DNA of 64,000 nucleotides. Source: a virus. Location of the stretch: positions 3,839-67,838 of IMG/VR virus record IMGVR_UViG_3300022822_000017, one strand, 5' to 3'. The translations under genes and the position numbers were made by a program. Each line of letters begins with the position of its first letter. The stretch's first letter is position 1. A model generated the notes under the pieces. The model was not told the DNA's origin. It saw nothing but the letters and a program-made list of their open reading frames with translations, and ran no database searches. Shown piece after piece: positions 2,697-36,119 of this stretch.

Positions 2697-3256
2697 TGGA
2701 TTTATTCAAAGTAGAAGGGAATTTAGTAATACCAACAGAGCATGCTTTGTTAGTATCTCCTTACTCTGATATTTGGGATAGAGACCCAGATCCAAAGAAG
2801 TTAAGTGCCAAGAGACAGTTTGCATACATTGAGTTGTGTTGCAGCTATAAGAAAAGCAATCCTTATAAGGGGTTTGCTGAAGCAGTAAGAAAACAAAAGG
2901 TAATACAAGCAATATACAGGGAAGAAGCAGAGTTATTTGTAGAAGACCAACTTATTGTTGAAGGGATGGAGTTATATGAGAAGTTAAGAGTAGAAGCATC
3001 TCCAACCTTGCAGTATTATCTATCAGCAAAAGCAGGAGCTGAGAAAATGTTAAAGTGGCTTAATGATTTTGATATGGAAGACCTTAATGAAAGAACAGGT
3101 CTGCCATTGTATAAGCCAAGAGAGATAACCTCAGCATTGAAAGATAGCTATGAGGTAATGAAGACATTAAACTCTATGGAAGAGAAAGTCCAAGAGCAAT
3201 TGTTTGAGTCTACAAAGACTATAGGTAACAAGGAGATTAATCACTTTGAAAAGTAA
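2696..3256 (+). CDS. conserved crAss-like protein upstream of terminase (candidate small terminase subunit)
   Basis: Position and helical character; function inferred from synteny only. Confidence 0.5.
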   Translation: MDLFKVEGNLVIPTEHALLVSPYSDIWDRDPDPKKLSAKRQFAYIELCCSYKKSNPYKGFAEAVRKQKVIQAIYREEAELFVEDQLIVEGMELYEKLRVEASPTLQYYLSAKAGAEKMLKWLNDFDMEDLNERTGLPLYKPREITSALKDSYEVMKTLNSMEEKVQEQLFESTKTIGNKEINHFEK

Positions 3257-3259
3257 AGT

Positions 3260-3409
3260 ATGACAGTAACACAGACACTTAGCTTACACATAGAGGATAA
3301 AATTAGTTATCATGAAAAGCTTAGAATACAATTTGAAGCTAGTGAACAATTTGAGCAGTGTGCTAGGCATAGAGATGAGGTAACAAAACTTAAAAAGATG
3401 TTAGCTTAA
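3260..3409 (+). CDS. 49-aa UVR (UvrB/UvrC-motif)-like coiled-coil protein, not in ORF track
   Basis: MTVTQ...ASEQFEQCARHRDEVTKLKKMLA fits E-x-F-E-x-A-A-x-x-R-D; its TAA overlaps the terminase ATG (TAATG). Confidence 0.6.
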   Translation: MTVTQTLSLHIEDKISYHEKLRIQFEASEQFEQCARHRDEVTKLKKMLA

Positions 3410-13471: not shown

Positions 13472-14413
13472 ATGGCAGACGTAAATCATACATTAACTAC
13501 ACTACAAGATGTTAACTACATCTTAAACAATGAGCCTACAGCCATTGGATTTACTCTCTCTGAGATAGACCCTTGTACAGCAGATAAGACCATTTTAGTA
13601 GGTACTATTGAGCCTGGGGTTAACTACAAGTTACCTATAAAAGTAGATGGCAGGTATAGTGTAAAGCTAGAACTGTTAGATACTGAATCTACTATTATAA
13701 TAAACCATTATGTAAAGTTACAATTATCAACTATAGAGAGCATATTTTCTGTTACCTGTGATTGTGGTTGTGGATGTGCAGATTGCACAGACCTAAACTT
13801 AGACATATACAAAGCACTACTAGCAACAAGAAATAAGATAGATACCTTAAAATATTTGTCTTCTCCTAAGTATGACTCTTTCTTTCAGAAAGTTCATAAG
13901 GGAATTAGTTGTTTAATAGAGCCACAAATTTATTGTGACATTACTACAGAATCTGTAACAGGTGTATCACAATACAATTCACAACTTACTAAAGATTTGA
14001 TATCTTTAGATTATTTAATAATGTACTTTGCTGACCTTAGAGATGTTTCAGATTTAGATGAGATTGCTTACATCAATGATAAGTATCAATCAGAGTCTAT
14101 ACTTTGTTGTATAAACTCTTCTGGAGTTAACATCAAAGAAATACAAGACATAGTAAATAGCACAACAACTACTACTTTATGTCCTGTATGTCCTGAGTAC
14201 ACAACAACAGCTTGTCCAACAACAACAACCACTACCACTGAAGAAGTAACAACTACTGAAGATCCAGTAACAACTACTACTACAGAGGACCCAGTTACAA
14301 CAACAACTAGTACAAGTACAACAACAACAACTAGCACCACAACAAGCACAACTACAACTACCACAGCAGCACCAGATGATTGTGAGTTAGTAGGAACTGC
14401 AGATGAGGTATAA
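13472..14413 (+). CDS. putative virion fibre-anchor protein with Cys cluster and Thr-rich linker
   Basis: CDCGCGCADC; poly-Thr tract near the C-terminus; ends in DCELVGTADEV. Confidence 0.6.
   Translation: MADVNHTLTTLQDVNYILNNEPTAIGFTLSEIDPCTADKTILVGTIEPGVNYKLPIKVDGRYSVKLELLDTESTIIINHYVKLQLSTIESIFSVTCDCGCGCADCTDLNLDIYKALLATRNKIDTLKYLSSPKYDSFFQKVHKGISCLIEPQIYCDITTESVTGVSQYNSQLTKDLISLDYLIMYFADLRDVSDLDEIAYINDKYQSESILCCINSSGVNIKEIQDIVNSTTTTTLCPVCPEYTTTACPTTTTTTTEEVTTTEDPVTTTTTEDPVTTTTSTSTTTTTSTTTSTTTTTTAAPDDCELVGTADEV
14160..14365 (+). repeat. ACN-rich low-complexity tract encoding mucin-like Thr/Ser linker
   Basis: TTTTTTTEEVTTTEDPVTTTTTEDPVTTTTSTSTTTT. Confidence 0.85.
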
Positions 14414-14428
14414 AATAATTATAGAGAT

Positions 14429-15163
14429 ATGACAATAATATTGACATTAACAACAGCAGGTATAGACACTACTGCTTTTAATCTTTATTCCAATGCAGAC
14501 AGTTATACTGCTATACAAGATACTGCCACTAGAGCAGAATTGATGGCAGGTAAAACAGTTACAATGCCAGCAGGTACTACAGCAATAAAATGTGTAGCTA
14601 CAGGTGAGTGTTCTTCTGAATTGTTTGTATCAGTAATAAACAAGTTAGCTCCATCAGGTTCTATCTCTGGAGGAGATTTATTAACATGTGTTAATACAAG
14701 TAACATCTTAACTGCAAATGTAGTTTACCAAGGTACACCTTCTTACTTGTGGTCTCCAGGAGGAGCAACTACACAAAACTTAACTGTCAATAGTCCAGGT
14801 ACATATTCAGTACAGGTTACAGATAGTTACAATAACAAGACAAGTACTATCACTAAAATAGTTTCAGAAAATGTAATAGCACCTTCAGTCAACATAGTTG
14901 AGACAGGTTCATTACCAGGTTCTGTAACACTAAGTGCAAGTGGGTCTACTGCACAAGGTAGTAAGACTTATTTGTGGAGTACAGGAGAAACTTCTGCTAA
15001 CATTATAGTAAATGGACCAGGAGTGTATGATGTTACAGTAACAGGAGGACTTAATGGATGTACAGCTAATCAGAGCATACAAGTTCTTGATTGCTCAATG
15101 ATAGGGACAATAGAAGATGTTACCCCAGAATGTGAAATGGAAGGTAATGCAGAAGAAGTATAA
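14429..15163 (+). CDS. putative virion decoration/fibre protein with two Ig-like (SprB/PKD-like) repeats
   Basis: YLWSPGGATTQNLTVNSPGTYSVQVTD and YLWSTGETSANIIVNGPGVYDVTVTG. Confidence 0.7.
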   Translation: MTIILTLTTAGIDTTAFNLYSNADSYTAIQDTATRAELMAGKTVTMPAGTTAIKCVATGECSSELFVSVINKLAPSGSISGGDLLTCVNTSNILTANVVYQGTPSYLWSPGGATTQNLTVNSPGTYSVQVTDSYNNKTSTITKIVSENVIAPSVNIVETGSLPGSVTLSASGSTAQGSKTYLWSTGETSANIIVNGPGVYDVTVTGGLNGCTANQSIQVLDCSMIGTIEDVTPECEMEGNAEEV

Positions 15164-15184
15164 ACAAGTTAACAATTATAAATT

Positions 15185-16093
15185 ATGATAACAAAAATAA
15201 CATTAACAACAGCAGGGATTGATACTACATCATTTACTTTGCATTCAGATGCAGACAATTATGCTGCAACTCTTGCAACTGTAAGTAGGTCTCAATTACT
15301 AGCAGGGTATGATGTTACAGTTCCTAGTGGCACAACAATAGTTAAAGTACAAGCTACAGGAGCTTGTTCTACTAGCATTTTGTTGTCAATAACAGCTACA
15401 ACTGCAGCACCTGCAAATTGTCAAGTATGGACAGCTACAATGGCTGGACAAGTTCAATCAGGAGAAAGCATGACAGTTAATGCTGTTCTTTGTGATGGAA
15501 ACAGTATTACTTATGTTTTATATGAAGGAGAGTCTGTAAACTTCTGTGGTACTATAACTAGTAGCACACTTAATGGAGGAACACTAACCTCTGGTTCAGC
15601 TTGTACTTCTGCTTACAGAAGTGTAGTACTTGCATCTAGTGGGAACAATGATTACAGTGCTTGTGCTTCATCAAGTTACACAAATTTCTATATGCCTAAT
15701 GGTTCAAGACTATTAACTGCAACAAACATTTTTAGTGCTGCAAGTGGTGGAACAAGACCAGGTGCACTTTTCTTTAGAGAAGCATCTACAATAGGTTGGA
15801 GACAATGGACTGGAACTGCATTTGGAGGACAAGGAGAATGTGTTTCTACAGATTGTAAAACATGGACATTGACTAGTAGTAATCATCCATCAGGAGAGTT
15901 TACTGAAATAAGATATACTCCTTGTGAAGGAGGTCCTCAGATAACAATAACTACTGGAGGTCAGACAAGTCAATCTTTCTGTGCTGATATAGACTTTATA
16001 GAGATAGTAGATATGCCAGGATGGGATGGAGTTAAAGATGACAACATGGTTGGTGGATACAGTAATTTAACAGCAACAAGTCAAAGCTGTTAA
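15185..16093 (+). CDS. Cys/Thr-rich putative fibre/adhesin protein
   Basis: N-terminal ~70 aa paralogous to 14429 ORF (TLTTAGIDTT); small Cys-paired beta modules. Confidence 0.65.
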   Translation: MITKITLTTAGIDTTSFTLHSDADNYAATLATVSRSQLLAGYDVTVPSGTTIVKVQATGACSTSILLSITATTAAPANCQVWTATMAGQVQSGESMTVNAVLCDGNSITYVLYEGESVNFCGTITSSTLNGGTLTSGSACTSAYRSVVLASSGNNDYSACASSSYTNFYMPNGSRLLTATNIFSAASGGTRPGALFFREASTIGWRQWTGTAFGGQGECVSTDCKTWTLTSSNHPSGEFTEIRYTPCEGGPQITITTGGQTSQSFCADIDFIEIVDMPGWDGVKDDNMVGGYSNLTATSQSC

Positions 16094-16536
16094 TGACTGA
16101 TGAACTAATTAAATTAATAAAACAACTTGTAAAGGTCACCCATTCAAGGGTGATCTTTGTAGGGAGTTTTGTAGACACCATAAGAGGTATATCTGGAACA
16201 CCAAGAGATATAGACATTATTGTAAGAAAAGAAGACTTAGCTGCCTTAGAAGTTCTAGGAGAAGTTATCCCTTTAAAATACAATCCTATGTTTAAAGGTA
16301 GAGAAAGATATTTCATAAAGACTGAAGTTATACCTATAGATGTATTTGTAGGAGATGGTCATTTAAGTGGTGCCACATTTGAAGATGTACTAGTAGGAGA
16401 AACACTTGTAAAGGTGTACTCTAAAGAAAGTGAAATAGAATCAGCTGCAAAGCTTGCAGAACATGTTGAATCAATTCATTTAAGTACCTCAAGAAAGTAT
16501 TTAAAAAGAGCAAACAAATTAAAAGAAAGACTATAG
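16093..16536 (+). CDS. nucleotidyltransferase-fold (Pol beta superfamily) protein
   Basis: VIFVGSF...TPRDIDIIV (hG[GS]...DxD) plus a third Asp in IPIDVF. Confidence 0.7.
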   Translation: MTDELIKLIKQLVKVTHSRVIFVGSFVDTIRGISGTPRDIDIIVRKEDLAALEVLGEVIPLKYNPMFKGRERYFIKTEVIPIDVFVGDGHLSGATFEDVLVGETLVKVYSKESEIESAAKLAEHVESIHLSTSRKYLKRANKLKERL

Positions 16537-17456
16537 TGAGATATATATGTGCACAACCTACTAACAATTACTATACTTGGCAAGTAGAGGTGTTGATACA
16601 GAACTTTAAAAAGCAAGGAGTTAATCCTAATCAGATTGATATCTTGTGTTCTACTACTACAGGGGAGATTCCTGAAGTATGGAAAAGGTTACAAGCACAT
16701 TATAACACTGTAAGGTTCTTCTTTTACAAAGACACAAGAAAGGATAAAAGTTATATACCTTCTATCTATTTTAATTTAATGAAAAATCACATGATGGCTC
16801 ACCCTGAATTAGAAAAAGAAAGGTTATTTTTACATGACAGTGATATAGTGTTTACTAGACCCCCAGAAGTTAGTTGGGTTGAAGGTAAAACCTGGTATAT
16901 GAGTGATACAAATTCATACATAAACTATGACTATATACAGAAGAAAGGAGATGACATCTATAAGATGATGTGTCAGATTATAGGGATAGACCCACTGATA
17001 CCAAAATTAATGAATAGTAACTCTGGTGGTGCACAGTATATAATCATAGGAGAGAACTGGAAGTTTTGGGAAAAGGTAGAAAGAAATAGCATTGAGTTGT
17101 ATTCTTATTTTAAAAGAGTTGAAAGCTCTTATGTTAAGAAGCATCAGAATGACTACCCCATACAGAAGTGGACTGCAGGAATGTGGTCATTGCTTTGGAA
17201 TGCTTGGAGAAATGGTCATGAAACCAAAGTAGATACAAGACTAGATTTTGGGTGGAGCACTCAAGATATTGATGTAACTAAAAAGAATTGGATTTTACAT
17301 AATGCAGGAGTGACTGACAATCAAAGTAGATTGTTTTTTAAAGGAGAGTACTTACACAAGTTGCCTTATAAAAGAATACTAGATATAGACAAAGACAAAG
17401 CTAGTTTCTATTATTGGACAGAAGTACAGGAAGCAGGTAAAAATACAATTTTATAA
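16536..17456 (+). CDS. GT-A glycosyltransferase, reminiscent of peptidyl O-glycosyltransferases (HPAT/SERGT-like)
   Basis: YYTWQ, LHDSDIVF (DxD), GGAQY, WTAGMWS, ILHNAG. Confidence 0.65.
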   Translation: MRYICAQPTNNYYTWQVEVLIQNFKKQGVNPNQIDILCSTTTGEIPEVWKRLQAHYNTVRFFFYKDTRKDKSYIPSIYFNLMKNHMMAHPELEKERLFLHDSDIVFTRPPEVSWVEGKTWYMSDTNSYINYDYIQKKGDDIYKMMCQIIGIDPLIPKLMNSNSGGAQYIIIGENWKFWEKVERNSIELYSYFKRVESSYVKKHQNDYPIQKWTAGMWSLLWNAWRNGHETKVDTRLDFGWSTQDIDVTKKNWILHNAGVTDNQSRLFFKGEYLHKLPYKRILDIDKDKASFYYWTEVQEAGKNTIL

Positions 17457-17474
17457 AACATAAACAATAAACCT

Positions 17475-17780
17475 ATGGCTAGCATCATTAAACAAATAGA
17501 TTACCTATACAGAGAGGTAAAATGCCTAAAAGCAAAACAGAGTGTACAAAGTGGTACAGGTGGTGGAGGAGCTGGAGGTAGTGGAGACAAACATCTTACA
17601 TACATTCAACCTGCTGAACTAGAAGAGTGGGTAATAGAACATAACTTAGACAAATATCCATCTACAGTAATTGTAGATGATAATGAAGTGGAAGTAGAAG
17701 CTTCAATTCAACACATTACCAGAAATAAATTAATAATAACATTCACACCTGGCTTCTCTGGAAAAGCCTACTTAAACTAA
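17475..17780 (+). CDS. small tail-fibre-associated protein
   Basis: WVIEHNLDKYPS...ITFTPGFSGKAYLN, a recurrent phage fibre module. Confidence 0.6.
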   Translation: MASIIKQIDYLYREVKCLKAKQSVQSGTGGGGAGGSGDKHLTYIQPAELEEWVIEHNLDKYPSTVIVDDNEVEVEASIQHITRNKLIITFTPGFSGKAYLN

Positions 17781-17786
17781 ACTACA

Positions 17787-18731
17787 ATGGCAGAAAGAAA
17801 ATTTCTATCAGATATTAATTTATCTGGAAATCAATTGCTGAGAGCTGTGTTTCACAATGCATCATCAGCACCAACATCACCAAAGGAAGGTCAAGCCTAC
17901 TTTAACACAGCAAGTAATACACTTTTAATCTATGCAGGAGGTTCTTGGGTAGATGCATTAGGTGCAAACTCAGCAACACAATTAGGAGATGGTACTAGAA
18001 ATGGTACTACCTATGGTATTGACTCTGATGGGTCTCAAGATGACATTATCTTACAAAGTGCAACTACCTCTTTAGCAGGTCTATTAAGTGCTGCTAAGTT
18101 CAATGAGATTGTAGCCAACAATGCTAAAGTGTCTAATGTAGATCACCCATTAGTTGAAGCACCAGTACCTTCTGATGCAGTGTTTACAGATACTGAAACA
18201 TTAACTACTTTAGGTTTGGCTGGAAACAACCTTACTTATGTAGATGAAAATGGAGATACAACTACTTTAGATTTAACTCTTTATTTAGATGATACTAATG
18301 CAGCAAGAATTGCAAGTGGAACTTTAAATGGTAGTACAGGTATTGCAACATTCACAAGAGATGATGCTAGTAGTTTTGAGATTAACATGTCTGCATTTTT
18401 AGATGCAATTACTCTAAACAATACTTTGACAAGTGATTCTACAACAGAAGGATTAACTGCAGCTCAAGGTAAGGTATTAAAAACATTAGCAGATTCAAAA
18501 GCTAAAAGATACTCAGGTACTTTTGGTAATGGTTCTTTACTTGTTTTATCAGTACCTGCTTCAACACACCAAGTAAATTCTAATGGACAATTTTCAGTTT
18601 TTACTGCACTTGTAAGTACAGGGGAACAAGTAGAATGTGAAGTTGTAATAAACTACACTAATGGAAACATTACAATTGAAACTAATGAAGCTGTTGGAAA
18701 TGCAGATTTATTAGTGACAGTAATTGGATAG
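17787..18731 (+). CDS. tail fibre-like structural protein
   Basis: APTSPKEGQAYFNT; ATTSLAGLLSAA; NTLTSDSTTEGLTAAQGKVLK fibre repeat. Confidence 0.7.
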   Translation: MAERKFLSDINLSGNQLLRAVFHNASSAPTSPKEGQAYFNTASNTLLIYAGGSWVDALGANSATQLGDGTRNGTTYGIDSDGSQDDIILQSATTSLAGLLSAAKFNEIVANNAKVSNVDHPLVEAPVPSDAVFTDTETLTTLGLAGNNLTYVDENGDTTTLDLTLYLDDTNAARIASGTLNGSTGIATFTRDDASSFEINMSAFLDAITLNNTLTSDSTTEGLTAAQGKVLKTLADSKAKRYSGTFGNGSLLVLSVPASTHQVNSNGQFSVFTALVSTGEQVECEVVINYTNGNITIETNEAVGNADLLVTVIG

Positions 18732-18761
18732 TTATCTGAGTAACATTTAAAAAACAATACA

Positions 18762-19211
18762 ATGGCAAAAAGAAAATTTATAGTTAATATAGAAGCTACC
18801 TCTTTCATAAAGAAGAATGGTACTTCCTCTCAGATTTTAAGGGCAGATGGAAGTGTGGATGGTAACATTTATACTTCTCTAAAAAGAGTGGGTAGTAACT
18901 TACCTACTACTGTTTCTAAGGTTTCAGGTAATCACACTATAGATTTTTCAGCTAACAATAACTTCCTGATAAATGCATCAGGAAGTTATAGTATTGTTGC
19001 TTCTATTTCAGCAGCAAATGTTGGTCAATCTGGCATGATTACTATAGTAAATTCTGCAGGAGTGACTCCAGGAAATTTACCTAGTAACCTTCTTACATCA
19101 AATGGACATGAACCAGCTTGGGTTACAGCAAGTGGTAAAACTTCCATATTATCTTATTATGTGATAAATGCAACACAGGCAATAGTAAATTACATTGGTG
19201 ACTTTTCTTAA
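18762..19211 (+). CDS. tail fibre-associated beta-rich protein
   Basis: SFIKKNGTSSQILRADGS fibre motif of Bacteroidota phages; C-terminal beta domain. Confidence 0.6.
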   Translation: MAKRKFIVNIEATSFIKKNGTSSQILRADGSVDGNIYTSLKRVGSNLPTTVSKVSGNHTIDFSANNNFLINASGSYSIVASISAANVGQSGMITIVNSAGVTPGNLPSNLLTSNGHEPAWVTASGKTSILSYYVINATQAIVNYIGDFS

Positions 19212-19222
19212 TATAAAGATAT

Positions 19223-20926
19223 ATGAATATAGGGTTCAGCAAAATCATAGAGTGGAACACATCTAAATCCACTACTACAAGTTTTAATACTTCTAGGAAT
19301 ACTAGTACTAGCTACATTACAACTAATGTTACAGCTACTACTTGGAGTACATCTAAGTCTACTACTACTGATTATGTTACCTCACATTCAACTCAGACTA
19401 ATGTTCCTACATCTAGGTCTACAACTACAACTTATAACACATCTAAGTCAACAACAACTACCTACATTACAACTAGGTCTACAACAACAAGCTATAATAC
19501 TAGTCACAGTACAACTACTACCTTTGATACAACTATTTCAACAGTTGTAACATGGATTACTAGTCACAGTACTAATACAGTGTACAACACTACTAAAAAC
19601 ACTAGTACTACTTATAACACATCAAGAGCTACTAATACAACTTTTAGTACTTCTAAATCTACTACCACTACTTTCAGTACTACTGTGAGTACTAGCACTA
19701 GTTATCTTACTTCTAGAGCTACTACCACATCATGGAACACAAGTAAAAGTACTACCACTGTTTATAATACAAGCAGAAATACTACTACTACTTATGAGAC
19801 TTCTAAGGCTACCACAACAACATGGTCTACAAATAGGTCTACATCAGTATCACAGTCTACATCAAGGTCTACCACAACCACATATAACACTAGTAAAAGC
19901 ACTACAACTACTTACAATACCAGTAGAGCTACTACTACAACATACAGTACCAGTAAATCAACTGTTACAACATACAATACAAATCATAGCACCACTACTA
20001 CTTTTAACACAAGTATTGCTACTACAACAACTTGGAATACACTTAGGTCTACAAGCACTACTTACAATACAAGTAAGATAACTAACAGTAGCTTTAACAC
20101 TAGTAGAACTACTACAACTAACTTTACAACTAGTAAGAGTACAACTACCACTTGGATTACTAGTAGGGCTACTACAACAACATATAACACTAGCCATAGT
20201 ACTACCACTACATGGAATACTTCTTACAATACAGTTACTACTTATAATAGTAGCACAAGTTTTACTACTACTTGGAGTACAAATAGAAGTACAGCAAAAT
20301 CTCATAGTACAAGTAAAAGTACTACAACTACCTGGAGTACATCAAAATCCACTACTACTACTTGGAATACTAGCAAGAGTACTACTACTACTTATAATAC
20401 TTCAACAAGTACTATAACAAACTACAATACTTCTCACAGTACTACAACTACTTTTAACACAAGTATAAGTACAGTGACTACATACAACACATCTAGGTCT
20501 ACAACCTGGAATACAAATGTATCTACAAATACTTCTTTTAGTACTACTAGGACAACAGGTACAACTTTTAATACAAGTAGAAGTACAAATACAACTTGGA
20601 TAACATCTAAAAGTACAACTACTACTTATTACACTAGTCACAGTACTACTAAGAGTACTAATAGTATGAGAAATACTAGTAGACTTACTAATGTAAGTAC
20701 TACTACAAGCTATAATACCCTTGTAGATACTACAACTACTTATATTACATACTATAATGTAATAACTAGTTGGAACACAACAAGGTCAACAACTACTACT
20801 TACAATACAACTACTGGTAGAAGTACTAGTTGGGTTACATCAAGAAGTACAACAACAACTTATGACACTTCTGGAGGAGGAGGAGGAAATTATGACCCAT
20901 CACCACCATTCCCATCTCCATCATAA
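19223..20926 (+). CDS. Thr/Ser decapeptide-repeat protein A (54 repeats)
   Basis: 11-aa leader + 52 decamers xT(S/T/N)(K/R/H)STTTT(Y/F/W) + 2 octamers + 20-aa Gly/Pro tail = 567 aa. Confidence 0.9.
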   Translation: MNIGFSKIIEWNTSKSTTTSFNTSRNTSTSYITTNVTATTWSTSKSTTTDYVTSHSTQTNVPTSRSTTTTYNTSKSTTTTYITTRSTTTSYNTSHSTTTTFDTTISTVVTWITSHSTNTVYNTTKNTSTTYNTSRATNTTFSTSKSTTTTFSTTVSTSTSYLTSRATTTSWNTSKSTTTVYNTSRNTTTTYETSKATTTTWSTNRSTSVSQSTSRSTTTTYNTSKSTTTTYNTSRATTTTYSTSKSTVTTYNTNHSTTTTFNTSIATTTTWNTLRSTSTTYNTSKITNSSFNTSRTTTTNFTTSKSTTTTWITSRATTTTYNTSHSTTTTWNTSYNTVTTYNSSTSFTTTWSTNRSTAKSHSTSKSTTTTWSTSKSTTTTWNTSKSTTTTYNTSTSTITNYNTSHSTTTTFNTSISTVTTYNTSRSTTWNTNVSTNTSFSTTRTTGTTFNTSRSTNTTWITSKSTTTTYYTSHSTTKSTNSMRNTSRLTNVSTTTSYNTLVDTTTTYITYYNVITSWNTTRSTTTTYNTTTGRSTSWVTSRSTTTTYDTSGGGGGNYDPSPPFPSPS

Positions 20927-20947
20927 AATTAAATTAAAAGAAACAAC

Positions 20948-21556
20948 ATGGCAATAGATCAGACATATTATAAAATGGGAGATGTTACTACTACTAATCA
21001 TCTTACTTCTCCTAATACAAAAAATATTAATGCTTGGTACAAAGAGTGGAAACCTCTTTTAGATGCAAGTGTATTTGATGCTTACATAGTAGGAAATGTG
21101 GCTGAAAAAATATTTGGTAAATCTATTATACCTACAGTAGATTTTGATGTAGCTTTGCTAGGAGACATAGCAGAGGATTATGAAAGCTTAAAAGTGTTAA
21201 TGGATGAAGCTGTAAGAATAGGTTTTGACAACAAATTTTTAGTTGATATATTTCACAATGATGCTTTGTTAGACATACAGAATTTTAAGCCTATTGTTCA
21301 GATAAGACAGTTTAATCATTTTAAAAGGTCTAATGCTGATGGCTCAAACAAAAAAGAATACAAAGTAGAAGGTAAAGACCTTGAAGAAATTTATGGTGGG
21401 ATGGTTAAAGCAACCTATACTAATACTGATATTATTCCTGTTAGTTGTTATAAAGCAAGAGCAAGGTTTAAAGATGGAGACTACATTGGAATACAAATAA
21501 ATGTAAAAGATGCATTTGATGCAGATGACAACCTTTTGGGTAAAGAATTAATTTAA
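20948..21556 (+). CDS. putative nucleotidyltransferase-fold protein
   Basis: AYIVGNVAE...PTVDFDVAL...FLVDIF (G...DxD...D spacing). Confidence 0.55.
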   Translation: MAIDQTYYKMGDVTTTNHLTSPNTKNINAWYKEWKPLLDASVFDAYIVGNVAEKIFGKSIIPTVDFDVALLGDIAEDYESLKVLMDEAVRIGFDNKFLVDIFHNDALLDIQNFKPIVQIRQFNHFKRSNADGSNKKEYKVEGKDLEEIYGGMVKATYTNTDIIPVSCYKARARFKDGDYIGIQINVKDAFDADDNLLGKELI

Positions 21557-21573
21557 GATAAAAAGAAAAGAAT

Positions 21574-23208
21574 ATGCCTAATACTTCCCATTCTACTACA
21601 ACTTCTTGGAACACTTCAAGAACTACTTATGTTGTTACTAACACAAGTCATACTACAACTACAAGTTGGAGTACAAGTAAAAGTACAGGTTATTCTAGGT
21701 CTACATCTAAAATTACTAATGAAAGTTATAGTACTTCAAAAAGCACTGTTACAACATGGTCTACAACTGTTTCAACAGCTGTACCAGTAAACACACAAAA
21801 GACAACTACATATTATACTTCTAAAAGTACTATTACAAATTATTCAACTAGTTTAACAACTACCACAACTTATGGTACATCAAGAAGTACCACTACAACT
21901 TTTGCAACTTCAAAGAGTACAGTAACTGTAAGGTCTACTTCAAGAACTACTACTTTTGCTACAACTAGAAGTACAAGTACTACCTGGTCAACCTCTAGAA
22001 GTACTACAACAACTTACATAACTACTAGGGCTACTACTACTACTTATGCCACAAGTAAGGCTACAACAACTACTTTTGCTACTAGCCAGAGTACAACAAC
22101 AACTTTTAATACCAATAAGTCAACTACAACTACTTATACCACTAATTATAATGTTATAACTAGTTTTAATACATCAAGGTCTACTACTGTAACTAATTCT
22201 ACAACAAAGAATACCTCTACTTATCATAGTACTAACAGAAGTACCACAACTACTTATAATACTGCTAGGTCAACTACAACTAGTTGGGCAACAAGTAAAT
22301 CCACTACTACTACATTCCTTACATCTAGTAGCTGGACAACTACTTTTAGTACTATAACAAATTTTACAACTACTTATAATACTTCTCATAATACTAACAC
22401 AACTGTTAGTACCTCAAGAAGTACTAATACAACCTGGTCTACTACTAGAAGCACAGTTACCACATACAATACTAATCACAGTACAGTGACAAGTTATAAC
22501 ACTAATCATAGTACTACAACAACATTTGCTACAAGTCATAGCACTACTACCACTTATGCTACTAACCATGCAACTACAACTACATGGACAACTACATACA
22601 ATAGAATAACTAGTTTTGATACAAGCAAGTCAACTACTACAACATATAATACTTCTCACACTACCTCTACTACTTTTAGTACTAATCACAGTACTACTAC
22701 TACATGGAGCACTAGTCAAAGTACTATAACTAATTACAGTACAAGTCATGCTACAAATACATCTTGGTTAACTGACAGAAGCACAACCACAACTTGGAAC
22801 ACTACTTCTTCTATTACCACTACTTATAACACTAGTCATACAACTGTAACTACTTATAATACCAATCATAGTACAGTTACTAACTATTCTACAAGTAGTT
22901 CAAGAAACACTACATGGTCTACACAGAGAAGTACTACAACTACTTACTCAACAAGCCATATTACATTAACAAACTATAATACTAACCATAGCACAACTAC
23001 CACATACAGTACATCAAAAAGTACTACAACCACATACAACACATTAAAAGCAACAACTACTAGTTATAACACAACTTACAATACCACTACTACATTTAGT
23101 ACAAGTACATCTAAGTTGACAAACTATTCTACTAGTCATAGCACAACAACAACCTGGTCTACCAGTAGATCTACAACAACTACTTTTACAACAACATGGT
23201 ATGTTTAA
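21574..23208 (+). CDS. Thr/Ser decapeptide-repeat protein B (54 repeats)
   Basis: MP + 52 decamers + 2 octamers + TTTWYV = 544 aa. Confidence 0.9.
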   Translation: MPNTSHSTTTSWNTSRTTYVVTNTSHTTTTSWSTSKSTGYSRSTSKITNESYSTSKSTVTTWSTTVSTAVPVNTQKTTTYYTSKSTITNYSTSLTTTTTYGTSRSTTTTFATSKSTVTVRSTSRTTTFATTRSTSTTWSTSRSTTTTYITTRATTTTYATSKATTTTFATSQSTTTTFNTNKSTTTTYTTNYNVITSFNTSRSTTVTNSTTKNTSTYHSTNRSTTTTYNTARSTTTSWATSKSTTTTFLTSSSWTTTFSTITNFTTTYNTSHNTNTTVSTSRSTNTTWSTTRSTVTTYNTNHSTVTSYNTNHSTTTTFATSHSTTTTYATNHATTTTWTTTYNRITSFDTSKSTTTTYNTSHTTSTTFSTNHSTTTTWSTSQSTITNYSTSHATNTSWLTDRSTTTTWNTTSSITTTYNTSHTTVTTYNTNHSTVTNYSTSSSRNTTWSTQRSTTTTYSTSHITLTNYNTNHSTTTTYSTSKSTTTTYNTLKATTTSYNTTYNTTTTFSTSTSKLTNYSTSHSTTTTWSTSRSTTTTFTTTWYV

Positions 23209-30467: not shown

Positions 30468-33400
30468 ATGGCTCAGAAAACACAACAAGGTCCTGTACCT
30501 AAAAGAGGTTTAATTACTGACACTTCACATCTTAATCAACCCCCAGGTGCATTAACTTTTGCACTTAATGTTGTTAATGAAAGTGAAGATGGAGACATGG
30601 GTTGGAGATCCAATGAACAAAGTAATGAGCCTTGTTATACTTTAACAAGTGGATATATCCCTTTAGGGGAAATTTACATTGACAAGAATGATAGTTTATT
30701 GCTGTCAGTATCAGAAGATGGTACTATGTCTGAAATAGGCATCATTGGTGTTAACTGTCAATATACTGTTTTAGTAAATGCAGACTTAGGATTCAAAGCT
30801 GAAAATCAAATTAGTGGTACTTATAGATTAAGAAGGGGTTGTGAAAGAACTTTTTACTTTACTACACCCACTCCTATGCTATTTAATATGGATAAACTCA
30901 ATGACTTTAAAGTTGATGAGACAGACTCTGATAGTGATTGGGACCCTGCAAAGTTTAAGTTGTTTAAAGTTTATGAAAGTATTCCAACTTTTCAGTTCAT
31001 TGAAGTAATAGAAAATGGACTACTAGCTCCAGGTTCTTACAATGCTTCTATACAATACTTAGACAATGACTTAAATCCTACAGAGTGGATTACAACTTGT
31101 GAGCCAATTAAGATTTATAATGATTCAGTAAGTAAGAAGTACAGTGCTATAGAAGGTTCAACCAATGTTGTAAATGCTGCACTTAATTTTGGATTAACTA
31201 ACAAAGCAATAAAGTTTAGCTTTACTGACTTTGATACATCTTATCCTTACTATAGAGTAGCTATCATTTCATCTAACACAGGTAGTGGTTTAGTGAATGA
31301 GGTAACTTTTTCAAGCCCTATTTCAACTAACATAAAAACATATACTCATACAGGTTCTTCATCTACTGTTACCACTGGTACAGAAAATGAGATACTGGCA
31401 TTTAACAATGTCATTGAAGAAGCAGAATTTGTAGAGCAAATAGAAAACAAATTAATACTTGGAAAGACTAAAGGTGTACAGATTAACTTCTGTGGACTAC
31501 AGAAGTATGCAAGTAAAATAAAGTCAGATGTAAGACTAGAAGAAACAACCCTTAACATCATAGGTGGCAATAACCCTAAAACAGCTACTGTAAACTTTGA
31601 TGGAGTAGGTTATATGCCAGGAGAAATATATTCTTTTGGAATAGTCTACATATTTGAAGGTAGTATTCTTTCTCCTGTGTTTCACATACCAGGAAAAGCA
31701 GAAGGACATATCTCTAGCATGTCAGACAACAACTTACTAGATTCTCCTTACCAATCTACTTCCTGTAAAGGATTCTGGGGACTAGATTCTCAAGGTGGTA
31801 CTTTGCTAGGTCAGCCTATTAGGCATCACAGATTTCCTACAAGGTCAGAAATTAATGAACCTTTATTTACTGAAGACACTAATGCTGAAAGTTTTACATT
31901 AAATAATCTTGTACTTACTTTAAGTGCTAGTGCAGTTACAGGTACAACCATATCTTATGAGGTATCTTATAAAATAGATGGTACACCTAAGACATTTAAC
32001 ACTTCTTTCTTGTCATCAGTATTTGATCCTGCAGAAGGGTTAGAAAGGACTGTTGCAACTACAAGAGGAGTTATAACAGAAATAATAATAACAGAAGACA
32101 TAGATGGTGCAGGGTACACAGAGATTACACCTGGAGTAGAATCCACATCTGGAGTAACCTATGCTCAATCCATAGTAGCAAGAGTAGTAGAAACTGAAGA
32201 TGCTGTCTACACTTCTAAAATAATGGGTATTACTTTCTCAGGAATAACTGTTCCTGAAGAAGTTTCTACCAATGGGTACAAAGTAATAGGGTATTACATA
32301 GTTAGAAATGAAAGAACTGAAGATGAGAAAACTGTTTTAGATTCTGGAGTAATGACACCTATGATGTTAGAAGAAAGAGGGTTTGTGGCTCATGGTCATA
32401 TCTTTCCTAATTTATCTGACACTAGTAGAATAGACAAAGACATCTTTGGTCTTATACATCCAGAGAATAAGTTTAATGGTCTTGAGTATAAGAACTTAAC
32501 ACAAATTACACAAGAAGGAGAATACAGAATAGTTTCTCAGGCTTTATCATCAGTGCTTACACAAGATGTAGGTGCAGGAACTTCCTATGACCCTGATGTA
32601 CACAAAGGTTTTGATGGAGATGGAATTACTTTGCATACTCTTACAAGAGATACTAAAGTTTCTTATCATCAGAAAACTAAGGAATGGATTAACCCTGAAA
32701 AAAGAGGAGAAGTTTTTTACCTTAATGCTTTAAACTATAAGACAGTTAAAGATAGTGATGACAAAAGTCAAGATGTTTATAATGTATCTGGAGATAACAA
32801 AATAGGTATAGTACAACTAGAAGAGGATATTACTGATGTAAATGACATACATAAAAAATTACCTTATGTAATGCTTAAAAGAGATCTCTCTTCTCCTTAT
32901 GGAAGTTTCAGAACTCTACAGTATTACAAGGAAAATGTAAATCCAATTTACTTTGATACTACCACAGAAGATAAAGATGATGTTACCAAGAATGGGGAAC
33001 AAGCTTATATCTTAAATGGAGATAGTTACATAGCACCTATGAAATATCATAGTGCACTGTTTAATAATTTTAGTCTTGCAGATAGAGATACCAAGTCTTC
33101 TTTTTGGACTATCCTTGCAGGAGTATTACTAGTAGTAGTAGGGGTTGCAGGAGCATTAATATCTGGAGGTAGTTCTTTGGCACTTGCTGCAACAGGACTT
33201 GCTGCTTTGTCAGCTACAGCTGCAGTAGTAGTTACAGCTGTATCAATTGCAGCAATAGGTTATGGTCTATCTACTTTGTCAAGTGGTATAGAAATGGCTA
33301 ATGTAATTGAAGTGTATCAGAAAATGTATGAAGCAGGTCTTAGGGACACTATACAAGATGATGACACTAAGACTATATTTGATGACAGAAACCAAGCTGA

Positions 33401-36119
33401 TGATGAATTTCAATGGCTTGGAGATGTAGTATCAAACTTATGGTTTGAGAGTGGAGTAAATATAGCACTTAGAAATGGTGTTACTTCTATACACTCTGCT
33501 TACATAGATGCTCCTACTGCTATGACTGACTACTATCCAGAGACTGAAAACTTGACTACCAATTCAATAGAAGGGTATTTAAGATACATGACAGGTGCTG
33601 GAAGTGCTCCTCAGAACTATTTAGATTCTTACATGTTAGAGAAGCTGACTGTAGTAGATGCAGAAAATTCTGATGGTAGATTATACAGAGGGTATGCAGG
33701 TGCAGAGATATATGCATTGAACAGAGATTACCAAAGAACTAACAAGCAAAAAATATTCTATGCTTTAGGTTTAGAGTATGACTGTTGTTCAAACTGTACA
33801 GAAGACTTTCCTCACAGAACATATTACTCAGAGCAATCTTTTCAAGAAGAGCTTATTGATAATTATAGAGTTTTCTTACCTAACAATTATAGAGACCTTG
33901 AGGGTGAGAAAGGGGTGATAACTGATTTGTTCAGAATACAGAACAATTTATACATCCAAACTGAAGGAGCTTTATGGCATTTGCCACAAACTATACAAGA
34001 AAGAGTAACAGGGGATGTTGTGTCCTTCATTGGTACAGGAGAGTTTTTTGCTATCCCACCAAGAAAGATCACTGACACTGATAAAGAGAGTGCAGGTACT
34101 CTGCACAATTGGGCAAGAATGAAGACACCAAGTGGTGTATTCTTTGTATCTGCTACAGAGGGGAAAGTATATTTATTTGATGGGAACAGTTTACAGCCAA
34201 TAGTTGGAGGTAATGAAACCTGGTTCAAGAATAACTTACCAGTAAAAGCAGATTTAGACTATTTAATTTCATCAGGAGTGAATTATCCTTTGGCAAATAA
34301 TCCCTCAAGCAAATTTGGTACAGGGTTTATTTCAACTTATGATACACAAAAAGAAAGATTTATATTAACTAAAAAAGATTATGTTCTTTCTAGTGGAATT
34401 TTAGATAGCACAGATTACATTACTTGTTCAAAAGATGGGCAGATAATAATCTTTGAGCCAGTAAGTGAAATAATAGCAGCAAGGCTAGCAGATGGTTGGA
34501 ACTATGAAGGTTTAGAAGATTGCAAAATGAAGTTTTCTTCAGAAGTAGTCACACAAACAACTGAAATAATACAAACAGAAACTATCATTGCTAACAAGGC
34601 TGATATCCATGTGTTCTTTGATACATCAGGTTCATTTGATGTAACAGCTTTAGGACAGATAGACAATACTATAGATGCTTGGTTAATTAACTTTAGAGCT
34701 TCAAACCCAAGTTGGACAGGAGATGTGTTTAAATACAATGACCAAACAGAGAGATGGGTAACTTATGCAGACATAATTGCAACTGATAACAGAAACAATT
34801 ATAATGGTATCACTTCAGATAAAGATGTAGTAGTAATTTCATTTTGTAATGAAGCTTCTCCTTCTTATCACAGTAGTGCTAATACTTTGCAAGCTACAAC
34901 TACAGCATTCCTAGATGACTATGATAAGTTTACAGGTACTAACTTGAATGGAAACAATCCAGCACAAGATAGTCTGTACTCTAGCTTTAAGTCTTTTAAA
35001 GGAATACATTATCCTATAGTATTTCCTAATGACCATTGGACAGCACCTTCACAAGCTTTTGTGTTAAACTCTCTAGCTGCACTGAGAGGTACAAGATATA
35101 CTTTTTCAGAAGTAAATGCTTTGACAGAAAACTTAGGTTTTGCATCAGGTGCATGGGATATTTTAAAAGCTTCTTTACAAGAGCCTAATTCTTATCCTAA
35201 CAATGGACTAGAAAACTTTGGTTGGTTAATTAAACATGATAGGTTTAAAGATGCACAAGGAAGTGTTATAGATACTACAGAGTTTACTAATGACATTACT
35301 TTACTTTTAGAAGGTAGTAATACCACAGTAGAAGAGCAAGTGTTAGTAAATGTAATAGACACTGTAGTAGACTATACATCAGGTAGAGTAGAGTCTGACC
35401 CTATACAATATGACTTGTCTTGGACTATGAGTTATTCTTTAAAAGATAAAGAATGGGTATCATGGCATTCATACACTCCTAACTTTTATTTCTATAGACT
35501 ACAAGAACATTATTCTTGGAGAAGTGGAGATAGCCAATTATGGAAACATAACAAAGCTAACCACTATCAAACTTTCTATGGTGTAAGACATCCTCATATC
35601 ATTGAGTATGTAGACAACAAGAAACCTAGGGAAACTAAAATTTGGGACTACTTGAATATACAATCTCATGCACAAGAGTTTAATCCTACTTACCAGGACT
35701 ATGTTGATAAGGACATTACTTTCAACAAGCTTATTGCTTACACTTCTAAACAGTCAACAGGGTTAGTAAACCTGGTTGTCAAAGATGAAGAGTTGGACTA
35801 CTTAGACAACCAAGTAGTAAACAATGTAGACAGTATCTTAGTTGACAGAACAGAAAGAGACTGGCACTTAAATGATTTAAGAGATGTAGTAGTTGATTAC
35901 ACTCTTCCATTATTCAGAAGAGACAATCTTTCATTACAATCTGAACATTATACAGATAAGGTGCTTAACACTATTGTATTAGATTACAATAAGGAATGGA
36001 ATGAACTACAAAGTTTTAGAGATAAATATTTGGTACTAAGACTTATTTTTGATAATTTTGATAACATAAAATTAATTACTAACTTTACAGAGGAGATTGA
36101 ACACAAGTCTTTTAGTTAA
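30468..36119 (+). CDS. tail stabilisation / muzzle protein (P22 gp10-like) with inserted domains
   Basis: 1883 aa; GYMPGEIYSFGIVY, IRHHRFP, WTMSYS...WVSWHSYTP, FRDKYLVLRL; internal hydrophobic segment and DTSGS motif. Confidence 0.8.
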   Translation: MAQKTQQGPVPKRGLITDTSHLNQPPGALTFALNVVNESEDGDMGWRSNEQSNEPCYTLTSGYIPLGEIYIDKNDSLLLSVSEDGTMSEIGIIGVNCQYTVLVNADLGFKAENQISGTYRLRRGCERTFYFTTPTPMLFNMDKLNDFKVDETDSDSDWDPAKFKLFKVYESIPTFQFIEVIENGLLAPGSYNASIQYLDNDLNPTEWITTCEPIKIYNDSVSKKYSAIEGSTNVVNAALNFGLTNKAIKFSFTDFDTSYPYYRVAIISSNTGSGLVNEVTFSSPISTNIKTYTHTGSSSTVTTGTENEILAFNNVIEEAEFVEQIENKLILGKTKGVQINFCGLQKYASKIKSDVRLEETTLNIIGGNNPKTATVNFDGVGYMPGEIYSFGIVYIFEGSILSPVFHIPGKAEGHISSMSDNNLLDSPYQSTSCKGFWGLDSQGGTLLGQPIRHHRFPTRSEINEPLFTEDTNAESFTLNNLVLTLSASAVTGTTISYEVSYKIDGTPKTFNTSFLSSVFDPAEGLERTVATTRGVITEIIITEDIDGAGYTEITPGVESTSGVTYAQSIVARVVETEDAVYTSKIMGITFSGITVPEEVSTNGYKVIGYYIVRNERTEDEKTVLDSGVMTPMMLEERGFVAHGHIFPNLSDTSRIDKDIFGLIHPENKFNGLEYKNLTQITQEGEYRIVSQALSSVLTQDVGAGTSYDPDVHKGFDGDGITLHTLTRDTKVSYHQKTKEWINPEKRGEVFYLNALNYKTVKDSDDKSQDVYNVSGDNKIGIVQLEEDITDVNDIHKKLPYVMLKRDLSSPYGSFRTLQYYKENVNPIYFDTTTEDKDDVTKNGEQAYILNGDSYIAPMKYHSALFNNFSLADRDTKSSFWTILAGVLLVVVGVAGALISGGSSLALAATGLAALSATAAVVVTAVSIAAIGYGLSTLSSGIEMANVIEVYQKMYEAGLRDTIQDDDTKTIFDDRNQADDEFQWLGDVVSNLWFESGVNIALRNGVTSIHSAYIDAPTAMTDYYPETENLTTNSIEGYLRYMTGAGSAPQNYLDSYMLEKLTVVDAENSDGRLYRGYAGAEIYALNRDYQRTNKQKIFYALGLEYDCCSNCTEDFPHRTYYSEQSFQEELIDNYRVFLPNNYRDLEGEKGVITDLFRIQNNLYIQTEGALWHLPQTIQERVTGDVVSFIGTGEFFAIPPRKITDTDKESAGTLHNWARMKTPSGVFFVSATEGKVYLFDGNSLQPIVGGNETWFKNNLPVKADLDYLISSGVNYPLANNPSSKFGTGFISTYDTQKERFILTKKDYVLSSGILDSTDYITCSKDGQIIIFEPVSEIIAARLADGWNYEGLEDCKMKFSSEVVTQTTEIIQTETIIANKADIHVFFDTSGSFDVTALGQIDNTIDAWLINFRASNPSWTGDVFKYNDQTERWVTYADIIATDNRNNYNGITSDKDVVVISFCNEASPSYHSSANTLQATTTAFLDDYDKFTGTNLNGNNPAQDSLYSSFKSFKGIHYPIVFPNDHWTAPSQAFVLNSLAALRGTRYTFSEVNALTENLGFASGAWDILKASLQEPNSYPNNGLENFGWLIKHDRFKDAQGSVIDTTEFTNDITLLLEGSNTTVEEQVLVNVIDTVVDYTSGRVESDPIQYDLSWTMSYSLKDKEWVSWHSYTPNFYFYRLQEHYSWRSGDSQLWKHNKANHYQTFYGVRHPHIIEYVDNKKPRETKIWDYLNIQSHAQEFNPTYQDYVDKDITFNKLIAYTSKQSTGLVNLVVKDEELDYLDNQVVNNVDSILVDRTERDWHLNDLRDVVVDYTLPLFRRDNLSLQSEHYTDKVLNTIVLDYNKEWNELQSFRDKYLVLRLIFDNFDNIKLITNFTEEIEHKSFS

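What the first reader, a model, noticed from the sequence alone, without database searches (positions are those of the whole stretch)
19223..23208. Two mirror-image repeat proteins that appear to pair like a duplex: a sequence-complementary antiparallel protein zipper
Seen (parsed by hand from the translations; totals reproduce 567 and 544 aa): protein A (19223-20926) and protein B (21574-23208) each have exactly 54 repeats of xTS(K/R/H)STTTT(Y/F/W). Each has two 8-residue repeats, at units 42 and 47 in A and units 13 and 8 in B, so unit i of A matches unit 55-i of B. In antiparallel register, A residue n faces B residue 553-n over the whole length, placing the basic residue (pos 4) opposite the partner's aromatic (pos 10). 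Deviations compensate. Tyr replaces the basic residue 5 times, and in 4 of these the facing residue has lost its aromatic (A-Y335/B-H218, A-Y511/B-R42, A-H361/B-Y192, A-Q211/B-Y342). Of 9 non-Thr residues at pos 8, 8 face one of only 11 non-Thr residues at pos 6 (V109/R444, V209/R344, R483/V70, R533/V20, K359/V194, F347/V206, V513/Y40, S289/F264), and the R:V pair recurs four times. The ends also match: B's terminal WYV faces A's IEW leader, and B's Met1 faces the start of A's Gly linker. Inference: A and B form a ~540-residue two-stranded antiparallel beta-ribbon (at most ~180 nm at ~0.33 nm/residue) with a cation-pi ladder, and the irregularities act as a register code against slippage, like covarying base pairs. 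It is probably a long virion filament. I know of no described phage fibre built this way.
Basis: partly seen in the sequence, partly recalled or inferred. Interest (0 to 1): 0.95.

Follow-up and report, generated by a model that had tools for sequence, protein, structure and literature searches.

The report
Two-gene mirror-coded phage fibre duplex
Two neighbouring threonine-rich phage proteins match each other residue by residue when one is read backwards, and dozens of related phages keep the same rule, so the two chains very probably zip into one long fibre held in register by a pairing code that I found in no paper, family library or solved structure.

Summary
Observation confirmed; interpretation supported in its core. 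A (19223-20926) and B (21574-23208) each parse into 54 units with 8-residue units at mirror positions. Non-consensus residues co-occur at one antiparallel register only: sum 553 gives 17, against at most 14 in any register of 20,000 shuffles. At 553 the conserved face reads 148 Thr:Thr, 82 aromatic:basic and 9 Val:basic pairs; Thr faces non-Thr in only 9 of 268 pairs.

All 36 sequence-distinct gene pairs found in 80 syntenic loci of uncultured phages have one dominant mirror register (z 7.6-13.3), although their units are irregular. Fused single-chain hairpins of 230-1701 aa occupy the same gene slot. No DNA palindrome explains this.

Not shown: the fold itself, the number of duplexes per fibre, and presence in the virion. 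Two relatives carry a Peptidase_S74 trimer-chaperone domain, which hints at three duplexes per fibre. Structure predictions were uninformative. No Pfam, PHROG, PDB or GenBank-phage match and no paper was found.

This scan has already noted the same design on other DNA (single-chain and two-gene forms, in at least 7 other genomes). Those are AI notes that I did not re-test.

The parts
19223..20926 (+). Gene A, 567 aa: the outgoing strand of the duplex
   Evidence: ORF; 54-unit parse; unique antiparallel register with B
19223..19255 (+). A leader, residues 1-11, ending IEW; the base end of the duplex, facing B's C-terminal WYV
   Evidence: duplex print. A-like proteins of relatives start with similar leaders ending in W
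19256..20863 (+). A repeat region, residues 12-547 (536 aa, 54 units)
20486..20509 (+). A unit 42, 8 residues; mirror partner of B unit 13
20630..20653 (+). A unit 47, 8 residues; mirror partner of B unit 8
20864..20923 (+). A tail, residues 548-567: Gly5 linker plus a Pro-rich 12-mer. It overhangs the duplex at the inferred distal tip, where relatives carry tip domains
   Evidence: Tip modules at this place in relatives. Two in-frame TAA stops follow, so there is no read-through
21574..23208 (+). Gene B, 544 aa: the returning strand, which starts Met-Pro directly at the tip
   Evidence: ORF; parse. B-like proteins of relatives mostly start MPNT../MANT..
21580..23187 (+). B repeat region, residues 3-538 (536 aa, 54 units)
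21790..21813 (+). B unit 8, 8 residues
21934..21957 (+). B unit 13, 8 residues
23188..23205 (+). B C-terminal TTTWYV, at the base end, facing A's leader
   Evidence: B-like proteins of relatives end in ..W/Y-Y.. plus a 5-30 residue tail that overhangs A's N-terminus

Best explanation
A and B are the two strands of a split fold-back fibre. A starts at the base (leader ending IEW) and runs outward as one long extended strand. B starts with Met-Pro at the far end and runs back antiparallel, so that residue n of A lies opposite residue 553-n of B over about 540 positions.

Every second residue forms one face of the ribbon, and that face carries a pairing code: Thr opposite Thr, aromatic opposite Lys/Arg/His, and occasionally Val opposite Arg/Lys. 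Two shortened units and about 17 paired exceptions make only one register fit, so the chains cannot slip by one repeat.

The other face is small, polar and variable, and carries no sharp code.

The fibre belongs to the tail-fibre end of the phage's structural module. The A C-terminus/B N-terminus end is the distal tip: relatives carry tip domains there, while here there is only a Gly5 linker and a Pro-rich 12-mer.

Shown: the mirror complementarity and its conservation across relatives. Inferred: the beta conformation, direct contact between the chains, and the location on the virion. Open: one duplex per fibre or three.
For: - Unique register 553: 17 co-deviations, against at most 14 in any register of 20,000 shuffles.
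- At 553 there are 148 T:T, 82 aromatic:basic and 9 Val:basic pairs. Thr faces non-Thr in only 9 of 268 pairs.
- Like-with-like pairs are almost absent at the best register (0-2), and the best aromatic:aromatic or basic:basic registers reach only 12-43, against 59-84 for aromatic:basic.
- Six related gene pairs and then all 36 sequence-distinct pairs from 80 syntenic loci each have one dominant antiparallel register: z 7.6-13.3, best count 38-185 against next 15-111, parallel maximum 19-61. This holds although their units are irregular (4-16 residues).
- In all 32 pairs with both genes whole, B's end overhangs A's N-terminus by only 5-30 residues.
- Single-chain forms: 11 aligned hairpin proteins show insertions in arm 1 matched by insertions in arm 2. 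P0004 differs from P0001 by an 8-residue unit in both arms at mirror places. Giant hairpins have unique self-registers: L039 (1354 aa) 72 vs 33, L017 (1536 aa) 88 vs 37, L062 58 vs 40, L087 64 vs 41.
- L062 (one ORF) has the start of L061's A-like gene and the end of its B-like gene.
- The hairpin gene and the A/B pair both lie just upstream of a phrog_26179 gene and downstream of tail or virion structural genes.
- Beta character: period-2 conservation; 43% Thr, with 1 Pro and 2 Gly per 536 residues; the code lies on one face only, with non-T:non-T ratio 1.88 at offset 0 and 0.35-0.44 at +/-2, pooled over 32 pairs.
- The DNA repeats are degenerate (61-80% matches), so the pattern is kept at protein level.
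Against: - There is no structural evidence. AlphaFold2 of a 238-aa hairpin relative gave pLDDT 42.7.
- No proteomic or EM evidence places A or B in a virion, and no cultured relative was found in GenBank phages.
- The variable face shows no clean cross-strand covariation, which a simple isolated ribbon might be expected to show.
- Relatives with arms of 1,400 to over 1,850 residues would be 0.45-0.6 micrometres long if fully extended. That is unusually long and may mean the ribbon is coiled or bundled.
- In L020 part of the duplex sits one residue out of register (835: 59, 836: 38).
- In L071/L072 the A-like protein carries about 95 further repeat residues beyond B's Met1, with no visible partner.
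Confidence: 0.8

Rival explanations
1. The A:B pairing is the same, but the fibre is a bundle of three A:B duplexes (six strands) around a three-fold axis. It would be an enormously extended, two-gene version of the fold-back needle of the T4 long-tail-fibre tip, not a free two-stranded ribbon.
For: The A-like proteins of two relatives end in a Peptidase_S74 intramolecular-chaperone domain above Pfam's cut-off (L020: 30.0 bits; L117: 26.7 bits; cut-off 22). By my knowledge, and per the passage read in PMC10579305, this domain trimerises phage fibres. Other census relatives end in the same ..VEFK(Q/K)I motif. Phage fibres are typically trimers (abstract of PMC12143355). A strongly conserved face would suit a buried core or interface.
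Against: Window A and B have no S74 or other trimerisation domain. Only one register shows covariation; the secondary peak at 551 can be explained by neighbouring deviants. A core lined with Lys/Arg and aromatics would be unusual, and there are no HxH metal motifs (0 in A, 0 in B). Many relatives have Hint-like or short Cys-motif tips instead of S74.
Confidence: 0.4
2. A and B do not touch. Each lies, in opposite polarity, along a common third partner (another fibre protein or a polysaccharide) whose features impose the mirrored irregularities.
For: The anchoring of the base is unexplained. One face is strongly conserved.
Against: The rule is complementarity, not likeness: aromatic faces basic and Val faces Arg, with 0-2 like:like pairs. 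Arm lengths range from about 100 to over 1,400 residues with no candidate scaffold of matching length in the loci. Single-chain forms with tight turns such as a Gly-rich 8-mer fit direct hairpin pairing.
Confidence: 0.05
3. The mirror relation is chance or a by-product of DNA history (an inverted or mirror duplication). A and B would be independent repeat proteins: separate beta-solenoid fibres or mucin-like O-glycosylated decoration proteins.
For: Both are low-complexity and share the same repeat (B matches A at 57-59% identity).
Against: Shuffling never reached the observed count in 20,000 trials, and the pattern is repeated in 36 of 36 related pairs. Both genes are on the + strand with the same negative GC skew and positive AT skew. 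The longest inverted DNA repeat in 19223-23208 is 38 nt at 74%. ACN Thr codons cannot read as Thr on the complementary strand (reasoning from the genetic code). Deviants inside A or B show no stacking periodicity (at most 5-6 at lags 10, 20 and 30, against 17 for A:B). Pro is almost absent and conservation has a strict period of 2, unlike mucins.
Confidence: 0.03

Closest known systems
Needle domain of the phage T4 long-tail-fibre tip protein gp37 (Bartual et al. 2010, as described in the passage of PMC9659904 read; iron sites in the passage of PMC6957217)
   Same: A thin fibre made of antiparallel beta strands that run out to a distal head and come back. It lies at the receptor-binding end of a phage fibre.
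   Different: gp37 is one gene, a homotrimer, with a needle about 15 nm long (150 by 25 A, passage of PMC3004832) held by seven iron ions on His residues. Here the out and back strands are two different genes of about 540 residues, with no HxH motif, no sequence match to any PDB chain and a residue-pair code that fixes the register. Trimer state is unknown.
Trimeric phage fibres and tailspikes matured by a C-terminal Peptidase_S74 intramolecular chaperone (K1F endosialidase, T5 fibre; passage of PMC10579305)
   Same: Two relatives' A-like proteins end in this domain. The gene position is at the fibre end of the structural module.
   Different: Window A has no such domain. Known S74 fibres are homotrimeric triple beta-helices of one gene (recalled), not two complementary genes.
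Long antiparallel coiled-coil arms (SMC/Rad50-type) and heterodimeric coiled coils with a pairing code (recalled from general knowledge; no call)
   Same: Two long segments, fused or separate, pair antiparallel over hundreds of residues, and sequence positions decide partner and register. Arms lengthen and shorten together in evolution.
   Different: Those are alpha-helical heptad structures. Here the periodicity is 2 and 10 with 43% Thr, which points to beta strands.
Thr-rich beta-solenoid ice-binding proteins with TxT arrays (recalled)
   Same: Flat arrays of Thr on one face of beta strands; short regular repeats.
   Different: Solenoids stack turns of one chain in parallel. No such stacking signal is seen inside A or B, and the partner here is a second chain in antiparallel.

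Membership tests
T4 gp37-type fold-back needle | Sequence or profile similarity to gp37 or another solved fibre | tested here: not met
   phmmer of A against all PDB chains: 0 hits at E<=1. No Pfam family for A or B.
T4 gp37-type fold-back needle | Out-and-back antiparallel strands | tested here: met
   Inferred from covariation only: register 553 and single-chain hairpin relatives. Here the two strands are separate genes.
T4 gp37-type fold-back needle | Metal-binding His-x-His motifs along the core | tested here: not met
   0 H.H motifs in either repeat region.
T4 gp37-type fold-back needle | Homotrimer | not testable with these tools
   Only indirect evidence: an S74 domain in relatives L020 and L117.
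Peptidase_S74-capped trimeric fibre | C-terminal PF13884 domain | tested here: not met
   None in window A or B. Present in relatives L020 (30.0 bits) and L117 (26.7 bits).
Single-chain beta-solenoid repeat fibre | Deviant units stack at a fixed lag within one chain | tested here: not met
   Parallel autocorrelation of deviants is at most 5-6 at lags 10, 20 and 30. The Atlas model of A has pLDDT 0.61 and its only neighbours are extended repeat proteins.
Mucin-like disordered Ser/Thr-rich protein | Pro-rich, with no fixed periodic conservation | tested here: not met
   1 Pro per 536 residues. Positions 2, 6 and 8 are Thr in 45-52 of 52 units.
Mirror-coded Thr-rich fold-back fibre family (undescribed; defined here and in earlier notes of this scan) | One dominant antiparallel aromatic:basic register between two adjacent genes or two halves of one gene; leader ending in W facing a C-terminal W/Y; a slot upstream of a phrog_26179 gene | tested here: met
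   Window. Relatives.

The most novel reading that the evidence does not exclude
A and B form a free-standing two-chain protein duplex. It would be a single-layer antiparallel beta ribbon about 540 residue pairs long, and over 1,400 in relatives. Its partner choice and register would be set purely by a residue-pairing code on one face: Thr:Thr, aromatic:basic, Val:basic. Such fibres would evolve like nucleic-acid stems, with compensatory substitutions, mirrored indels, and interconversion of hairpin and duplex forms by gene fusion and fission.
Probability: 0.35. Interest if true: 0.95.

Novelty: categorically new. Interest (0 to 1): 0.88.

Why it matters
If the inference holds, this is a building principle for protein fibres that the sources I searched do not describe. 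Two different chains, or two halves of one chain, would be zipped antiparallel over hundreds to more than a thousand residues, with a simple readable code that fixes the register.

It would explain a widespread set of unannotated giant Thr-rich genes in uncultured marine phages. The 1.84-billion-protein search gave 55 hits at E<=0.001, mixed with compositional false positives; 202 viral contigs carry the syntenic marker gene.

It would also give structural biology a natural model of long single-register beta pairing. For protein design it would offer a possible rule set for programmable beta-strand heterodimers and nanofibres of set length.

The tip of the duplex carries exchangeable modules in relatives (Hint-like, S74 plus a putative binding domain, Cys motifs), which suggests a modular host-recognition device.

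Tried and rejected
- Complex prediction of A residues 400-552 with B residues 1-153: verdict 'no answer', score 0.00, controls not run. I do not use it either way.
- AlphaFold2 of the 238-aa hairpin relative with an 11-sequence alignment: pLDDT 42.7, unusable, so no fold search was made.
- AlphaFold2 of the 202-aa ORF without an alignment: pLDDT 32.2, unusable.
- blastn of 14000-19200 against GenBank phages: no match. tblastn of B and of the L041 hairpin against the same collection: no match. BLAST's low-complexity filter may hide repeats. The phrog_26179 protein found only relatives below 27% identity in Vibrio and Caulobacter phages.
- The search for related loci with the 202-aa ORF alone and with the 302-aa ORF alone found nothing. 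An alignment of the 302-aa family did work.
- PHROGs for A, B and seven relatives: no family.
- HMMER of B against 1.84 billion representatives: 55 hits at E<=0.001. The top long ones (P0021, P0036, P0023) are unrelated Ser- or Thr-rich proteins on inspection.
- I considered read-through from A into the 202-aa ORF, which is in the same frame. I rejected it because two TAA stops lie between them.
- I considered an inverted or mirror DNA duplication and rejected it.
- I considered a second edge pairing shifted by one repeat (sums 543 and 563). There is no deviant peak there.
- L020 and L021 differ by only 3+1 residues, so they gave no test of compensatory change.
- Literature searches found no description of such a fibre. 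Tentaclins (PMC10743442) and the Alteromonas chaperone 'tentacles' (PMC10579305) are unrelated, judging from the passages read. Supplementary files were not consulted.


Full report
**What is there.** ORF A (19223-20926, 567 aa) and ORF B (21574-23208, 544 aa) lie on the + strand, separated by a 202-aa ORF. The order of genes is: a tail-fibre-like gene (17787-18731; phrog_22284, PF22337), a 149-aa gene, A, the 202-aa ORF, B, a class I methyltransferase, a small Lys/Pro-rich membrane protein, a phrog_26179 gene, then holin and an endolysin-like gene. The record is an IMG/VR virus contig of 67,838 bp, estimated 72% complete, and only A and B carry the repeat.

**Check of the observation.**
- A has an 11-residue leader, 54 units and a 20-residue tail. 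B has Met-Pro, 54 units and TTTWYV.
- The only 8-residue units are A42 and A47, B8 and B13, so i matches 55-i. The chance of this is 1/1431.
- Both repeat regions are 536 aa.
- Even positions are nearly invariant (T2, K/R/H4, T6, T8, Y/W/F10) and odd positions vary.
- I marked every non-consensus residue on the even face (28 in A, 31 in B) and counted co-occurrences at every parallel and antiparallel register. Sum 553 gives 17, 551 gives 10, and nothing else exceeds 8.
- In 20,000 shuffles of B's unit order the count at 553 was 3.7 +/- 1.9, and no register in any shuffle exceeded 14.
- At 553 the 268 even-face pairs are 148 T:T, 82 aromatic:basic, 9 Val:basic and 5 Val:aromatic. Thr faces a non-Thr residue only 9 times. 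The next best register has 31 mismatches of 264.
- A-A and B-B scans show no peak, and the odd face shows no unique register.

**Ruling out a DNA artefact.**
- Both genes share the same strand and the same negative GC skew and positive AT skew.
- The longest inverted repeat in the region is 38 nt at 74%.
- The 30-nt DNA repeats are only 61-80% alike, in short arrays.
- By the genetic code, ACN Thr codons cannot read as Thr on the opposite strand.

The mirror relation therefore exists at the protein level.

**Relatives.** A word-seeded search with A returned metagenomic proteins of two kinds. The first kind has a base domain, repeat arm, globular tip, repeat arm and base domain in one chain. 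The second has a leader ending in W, repeats and a C-terminal domain.

Fetching loci with two of them and scanning all ORFs for the repeat revealed loci with two large repeat genes in tandem. For six such pairs a scan of 'aromatic opposite basic' over all registers gave one dominant antiparallel sum each (59-84 against 24-41 for the next; parallel maxima 22-28). Their units are irregular: 4, 6, 8, 10, 14 and 16 residues. Sixteen-residue units with two basic residues and one aromatic face a 10+6 arrangement with one basic and two aromatics. So the arms are complementary, not alike. Like:like pairs number 0-2 at the best register.

**Census.** Using an alignment of the conserved downstream gene (phrog_26179), 202 viral contigs matched and the best 80 loci were fetched.
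- 39 loci hold two repeat ORFs, 31 hold one (mostly cut by a contig end) and 10 hold none.
- All 36 sequence-distinct pairs have one dominant register (z 7.6-13.3). Some pairs are nearly identical to each other, and four or five re-find the first six.
- In all 32 pairs with both genes whole, the B-like C-terminus overhangs the A-like N-terminus by 5-30 residues.
- In 28 of these 32, B's first residue faces the end of A's repeats.
- In the other 4, the B-like ORF as I called it has extra N-terminal residues (L080 177; L090 and L093 20) or the A-like gene is frameshifted (L086, which is L036).
- Duplex lengths range from about 405 to about 1,415 residues, and a cut pair exceeds 1,850.
- One exception needs telling. 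In L071/L072 the A-like protein has a small domain and about 95 further repeat residues beyond B's start.
- In L020 part of the duplex is shifted by one residue.

**Single-chain forms.**
- Eleven aligned hairpin proteins share an N-terminal and a C-terminal base segment and a short Gly-rich turn. Insertions in arm 1 (columns 72-86 and 122-143) coincide with insertions in arm 2 (columns 273-286 and 223-242).
- P0004 differs from P0001 by an 8-residue unit in each arm at mirror places.
- Giant hairpins have unique self-registers: L039, 1354 aa, 72 vs 33; L017, 1536 aa, 88 vs 37; L062, 1297 aa, 58 vs 40; L087, 860 aa, 64 vs 41; L063, 1701 aa, 110 vs 95.
- Eleven B-like ORFs whose partner lies beyond the contig end show no self-register (z 3.1-5.7). 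This serves as a negative control.
- L062 begins like L061's A-like gene and ends like its B-like gene, so fused and split forms occur among close relatives.
- The L041 hairpin gene sits after tail or virion structural genes and just before a phrog_26179 gene, the same slot as the A/B pair.

**How it most likely works.** Period-2 conservation, 43% Thr, almost no Pro or Gly and a code confined to one face all point to two extended beta strands paired antiparallel. Pooled over 32 pairs, non-T:non-T enrichment is 1.88 at offset 0 and 0.35-0.44 at +/-2, while the other face shows only weak, non-unique signals.

From general knowledge of antiparallel sheets, directly opposite residues share a face, and Thr:Thr and aromatic:Lys/Arg cross-strand pairs are favourable. 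That the contact here is cation-pi is an inference.

By analogy with the single-chain forms, the base is the end where A's leader meets B's C-terminus. The distal tip is where A's C-terminus meets B's Met-Pro. In relatives the A-like chain continues at the tip into exchangeable modules:
- a Hint/intein-like domain (sub-threshold Pfam hits in L065: 18.6 and 18.5 bits);
- a short Gly-rich tail ending in a Cys-x-Arg-Gly/Asn-Cys motif;
- small Cys-rich or beta domains;
- a domain followed by Peptidase_S74 (L020 30.0 bits, L117 26.7 bits, cut-off 22).

In this window the tip is only Gly5 plus a Pro-rich 12-mer. The repeat regions are strongly basic: 46 and 48 K/R/H against 4 and 3 D/E.

At about 0.33 nm per residue (general knowledge), 540 pairs give at most about 180 nm.

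**What remains open.** The S74 domains suggest that at least some family members are trimers, that is, three duplexes and six strands, like a stretched T4 gp37 needle (passage in PMC9659904). Window A and B have no such domain and no HxH motif. The extreme lengths of some relatives may mean coiling or bundling. Presence in the virion rests on gene neighbourhood alone. Structure predictions were uninformative.

**Comparison with what is known.**
- No Pfam or PHROG family matches A, B or the relatives tested.
- No PDB chain matches at E<=1.
- Atlas neighbours are viral 'hypothetical proteins'.
- GenBank phages give no match.
- Six literature searches found no description.

The nearest known object is the gp37 needle. 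It shares the out-and-back antiparallel idea, but it is one gene, trimeric, short and iron-stapled.

**Earlier notes of this scan.** Notes on at least 7 other genomes report the same design, in both single-chain and two-gene forms. I did not re-test them. They agree with what I found independently in the IMG/VR relatives.

**Verdict.** The antiparallel, sequence-coded pairing of A and B is strongly supported by comparative evidence (confidence about 0.8-0.85). The precise architecture and the location on the virion are unproven.

Noticed in passing
window 20948-21556: The 202-aa ORF between A and B has no homologue by word-seeded search and no Pfam or PHROG hit. Structural neighbours of its Atlas model are nucleotidyltransferase-fold proteins at weak TM 0.35-0.56. 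In relatives the gene or genes in this slot are instead weakly methyltransferase-like, sometimes with a Hint-like C-terminal half by eye. A modifying enzyme between the two strand genes seems to be a theme. Its role is unknown.
   Followed up: partly
L061, L065, L066, L083 (A-like C-termini); P0009, P0013, P0014: Many relatives carry a Hint/intein-like domain directly after the last repeat. It starts with Cys and ends in ..THN. Pfam hits are only sub-threshold, and one Atlas cluster has Intein_splicing 48% and Hint 27%. In these loci the B-like gene follows within 7-78 nt. A thioester-forming domain at the exact point where the two chains meet raises the untested idea that it cleaves or ligates at the tip.
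   Followed up: partly
L070, L073, L078, L082, L096, L022, L032, L036 (A-like C-termini): A recurring short tail of a Gly run followed by Cys-x-Arg-Gly/Asn-Cys-(Ile/Gln) ends the A-like chain just past the duplex. In these loci the intervening gene is about 350 aa, methyltransferase-like, with a Hint-like half.
   Followed up: no
window 18762-19211; L020 3284-3784; L036 1430-2893: The gene just upstream of A ends in a motif like ..YYV.A...IVNYIGDF. The genes upstream of the A-like genes in L020 and L036 end the same way (seen by eye). It is a candidate adaptor that anchors the base of the duplex. No PHROG family matches.
   Followed up: no
A and B contain 39 and 29 N-x-S/T sequons and more than 330 Ser+Thr each. 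Modification of the fibre is possible but untested.
   Followed up: no
L036 (= L086) 2906-5163: The A-like gene of this relative is interrupted by a frameshift. The repeat continues in another frame as a 136-aa ORF that ends in the usual Cys-motif tail, and the B-like partner still has matching length for the whole. This could be a sequencing error or a real or programmed shift.
   Followed up: no
window 30468-36119, 39582-49370, 55283-63988: Giant ORFs of 1883, 3262 and 2901 aa, all on the + strand. Earlier notes of this scan read them as crAss-like muzzle and virion RNA polymerase genes. I did not test this.
   Followed up: no
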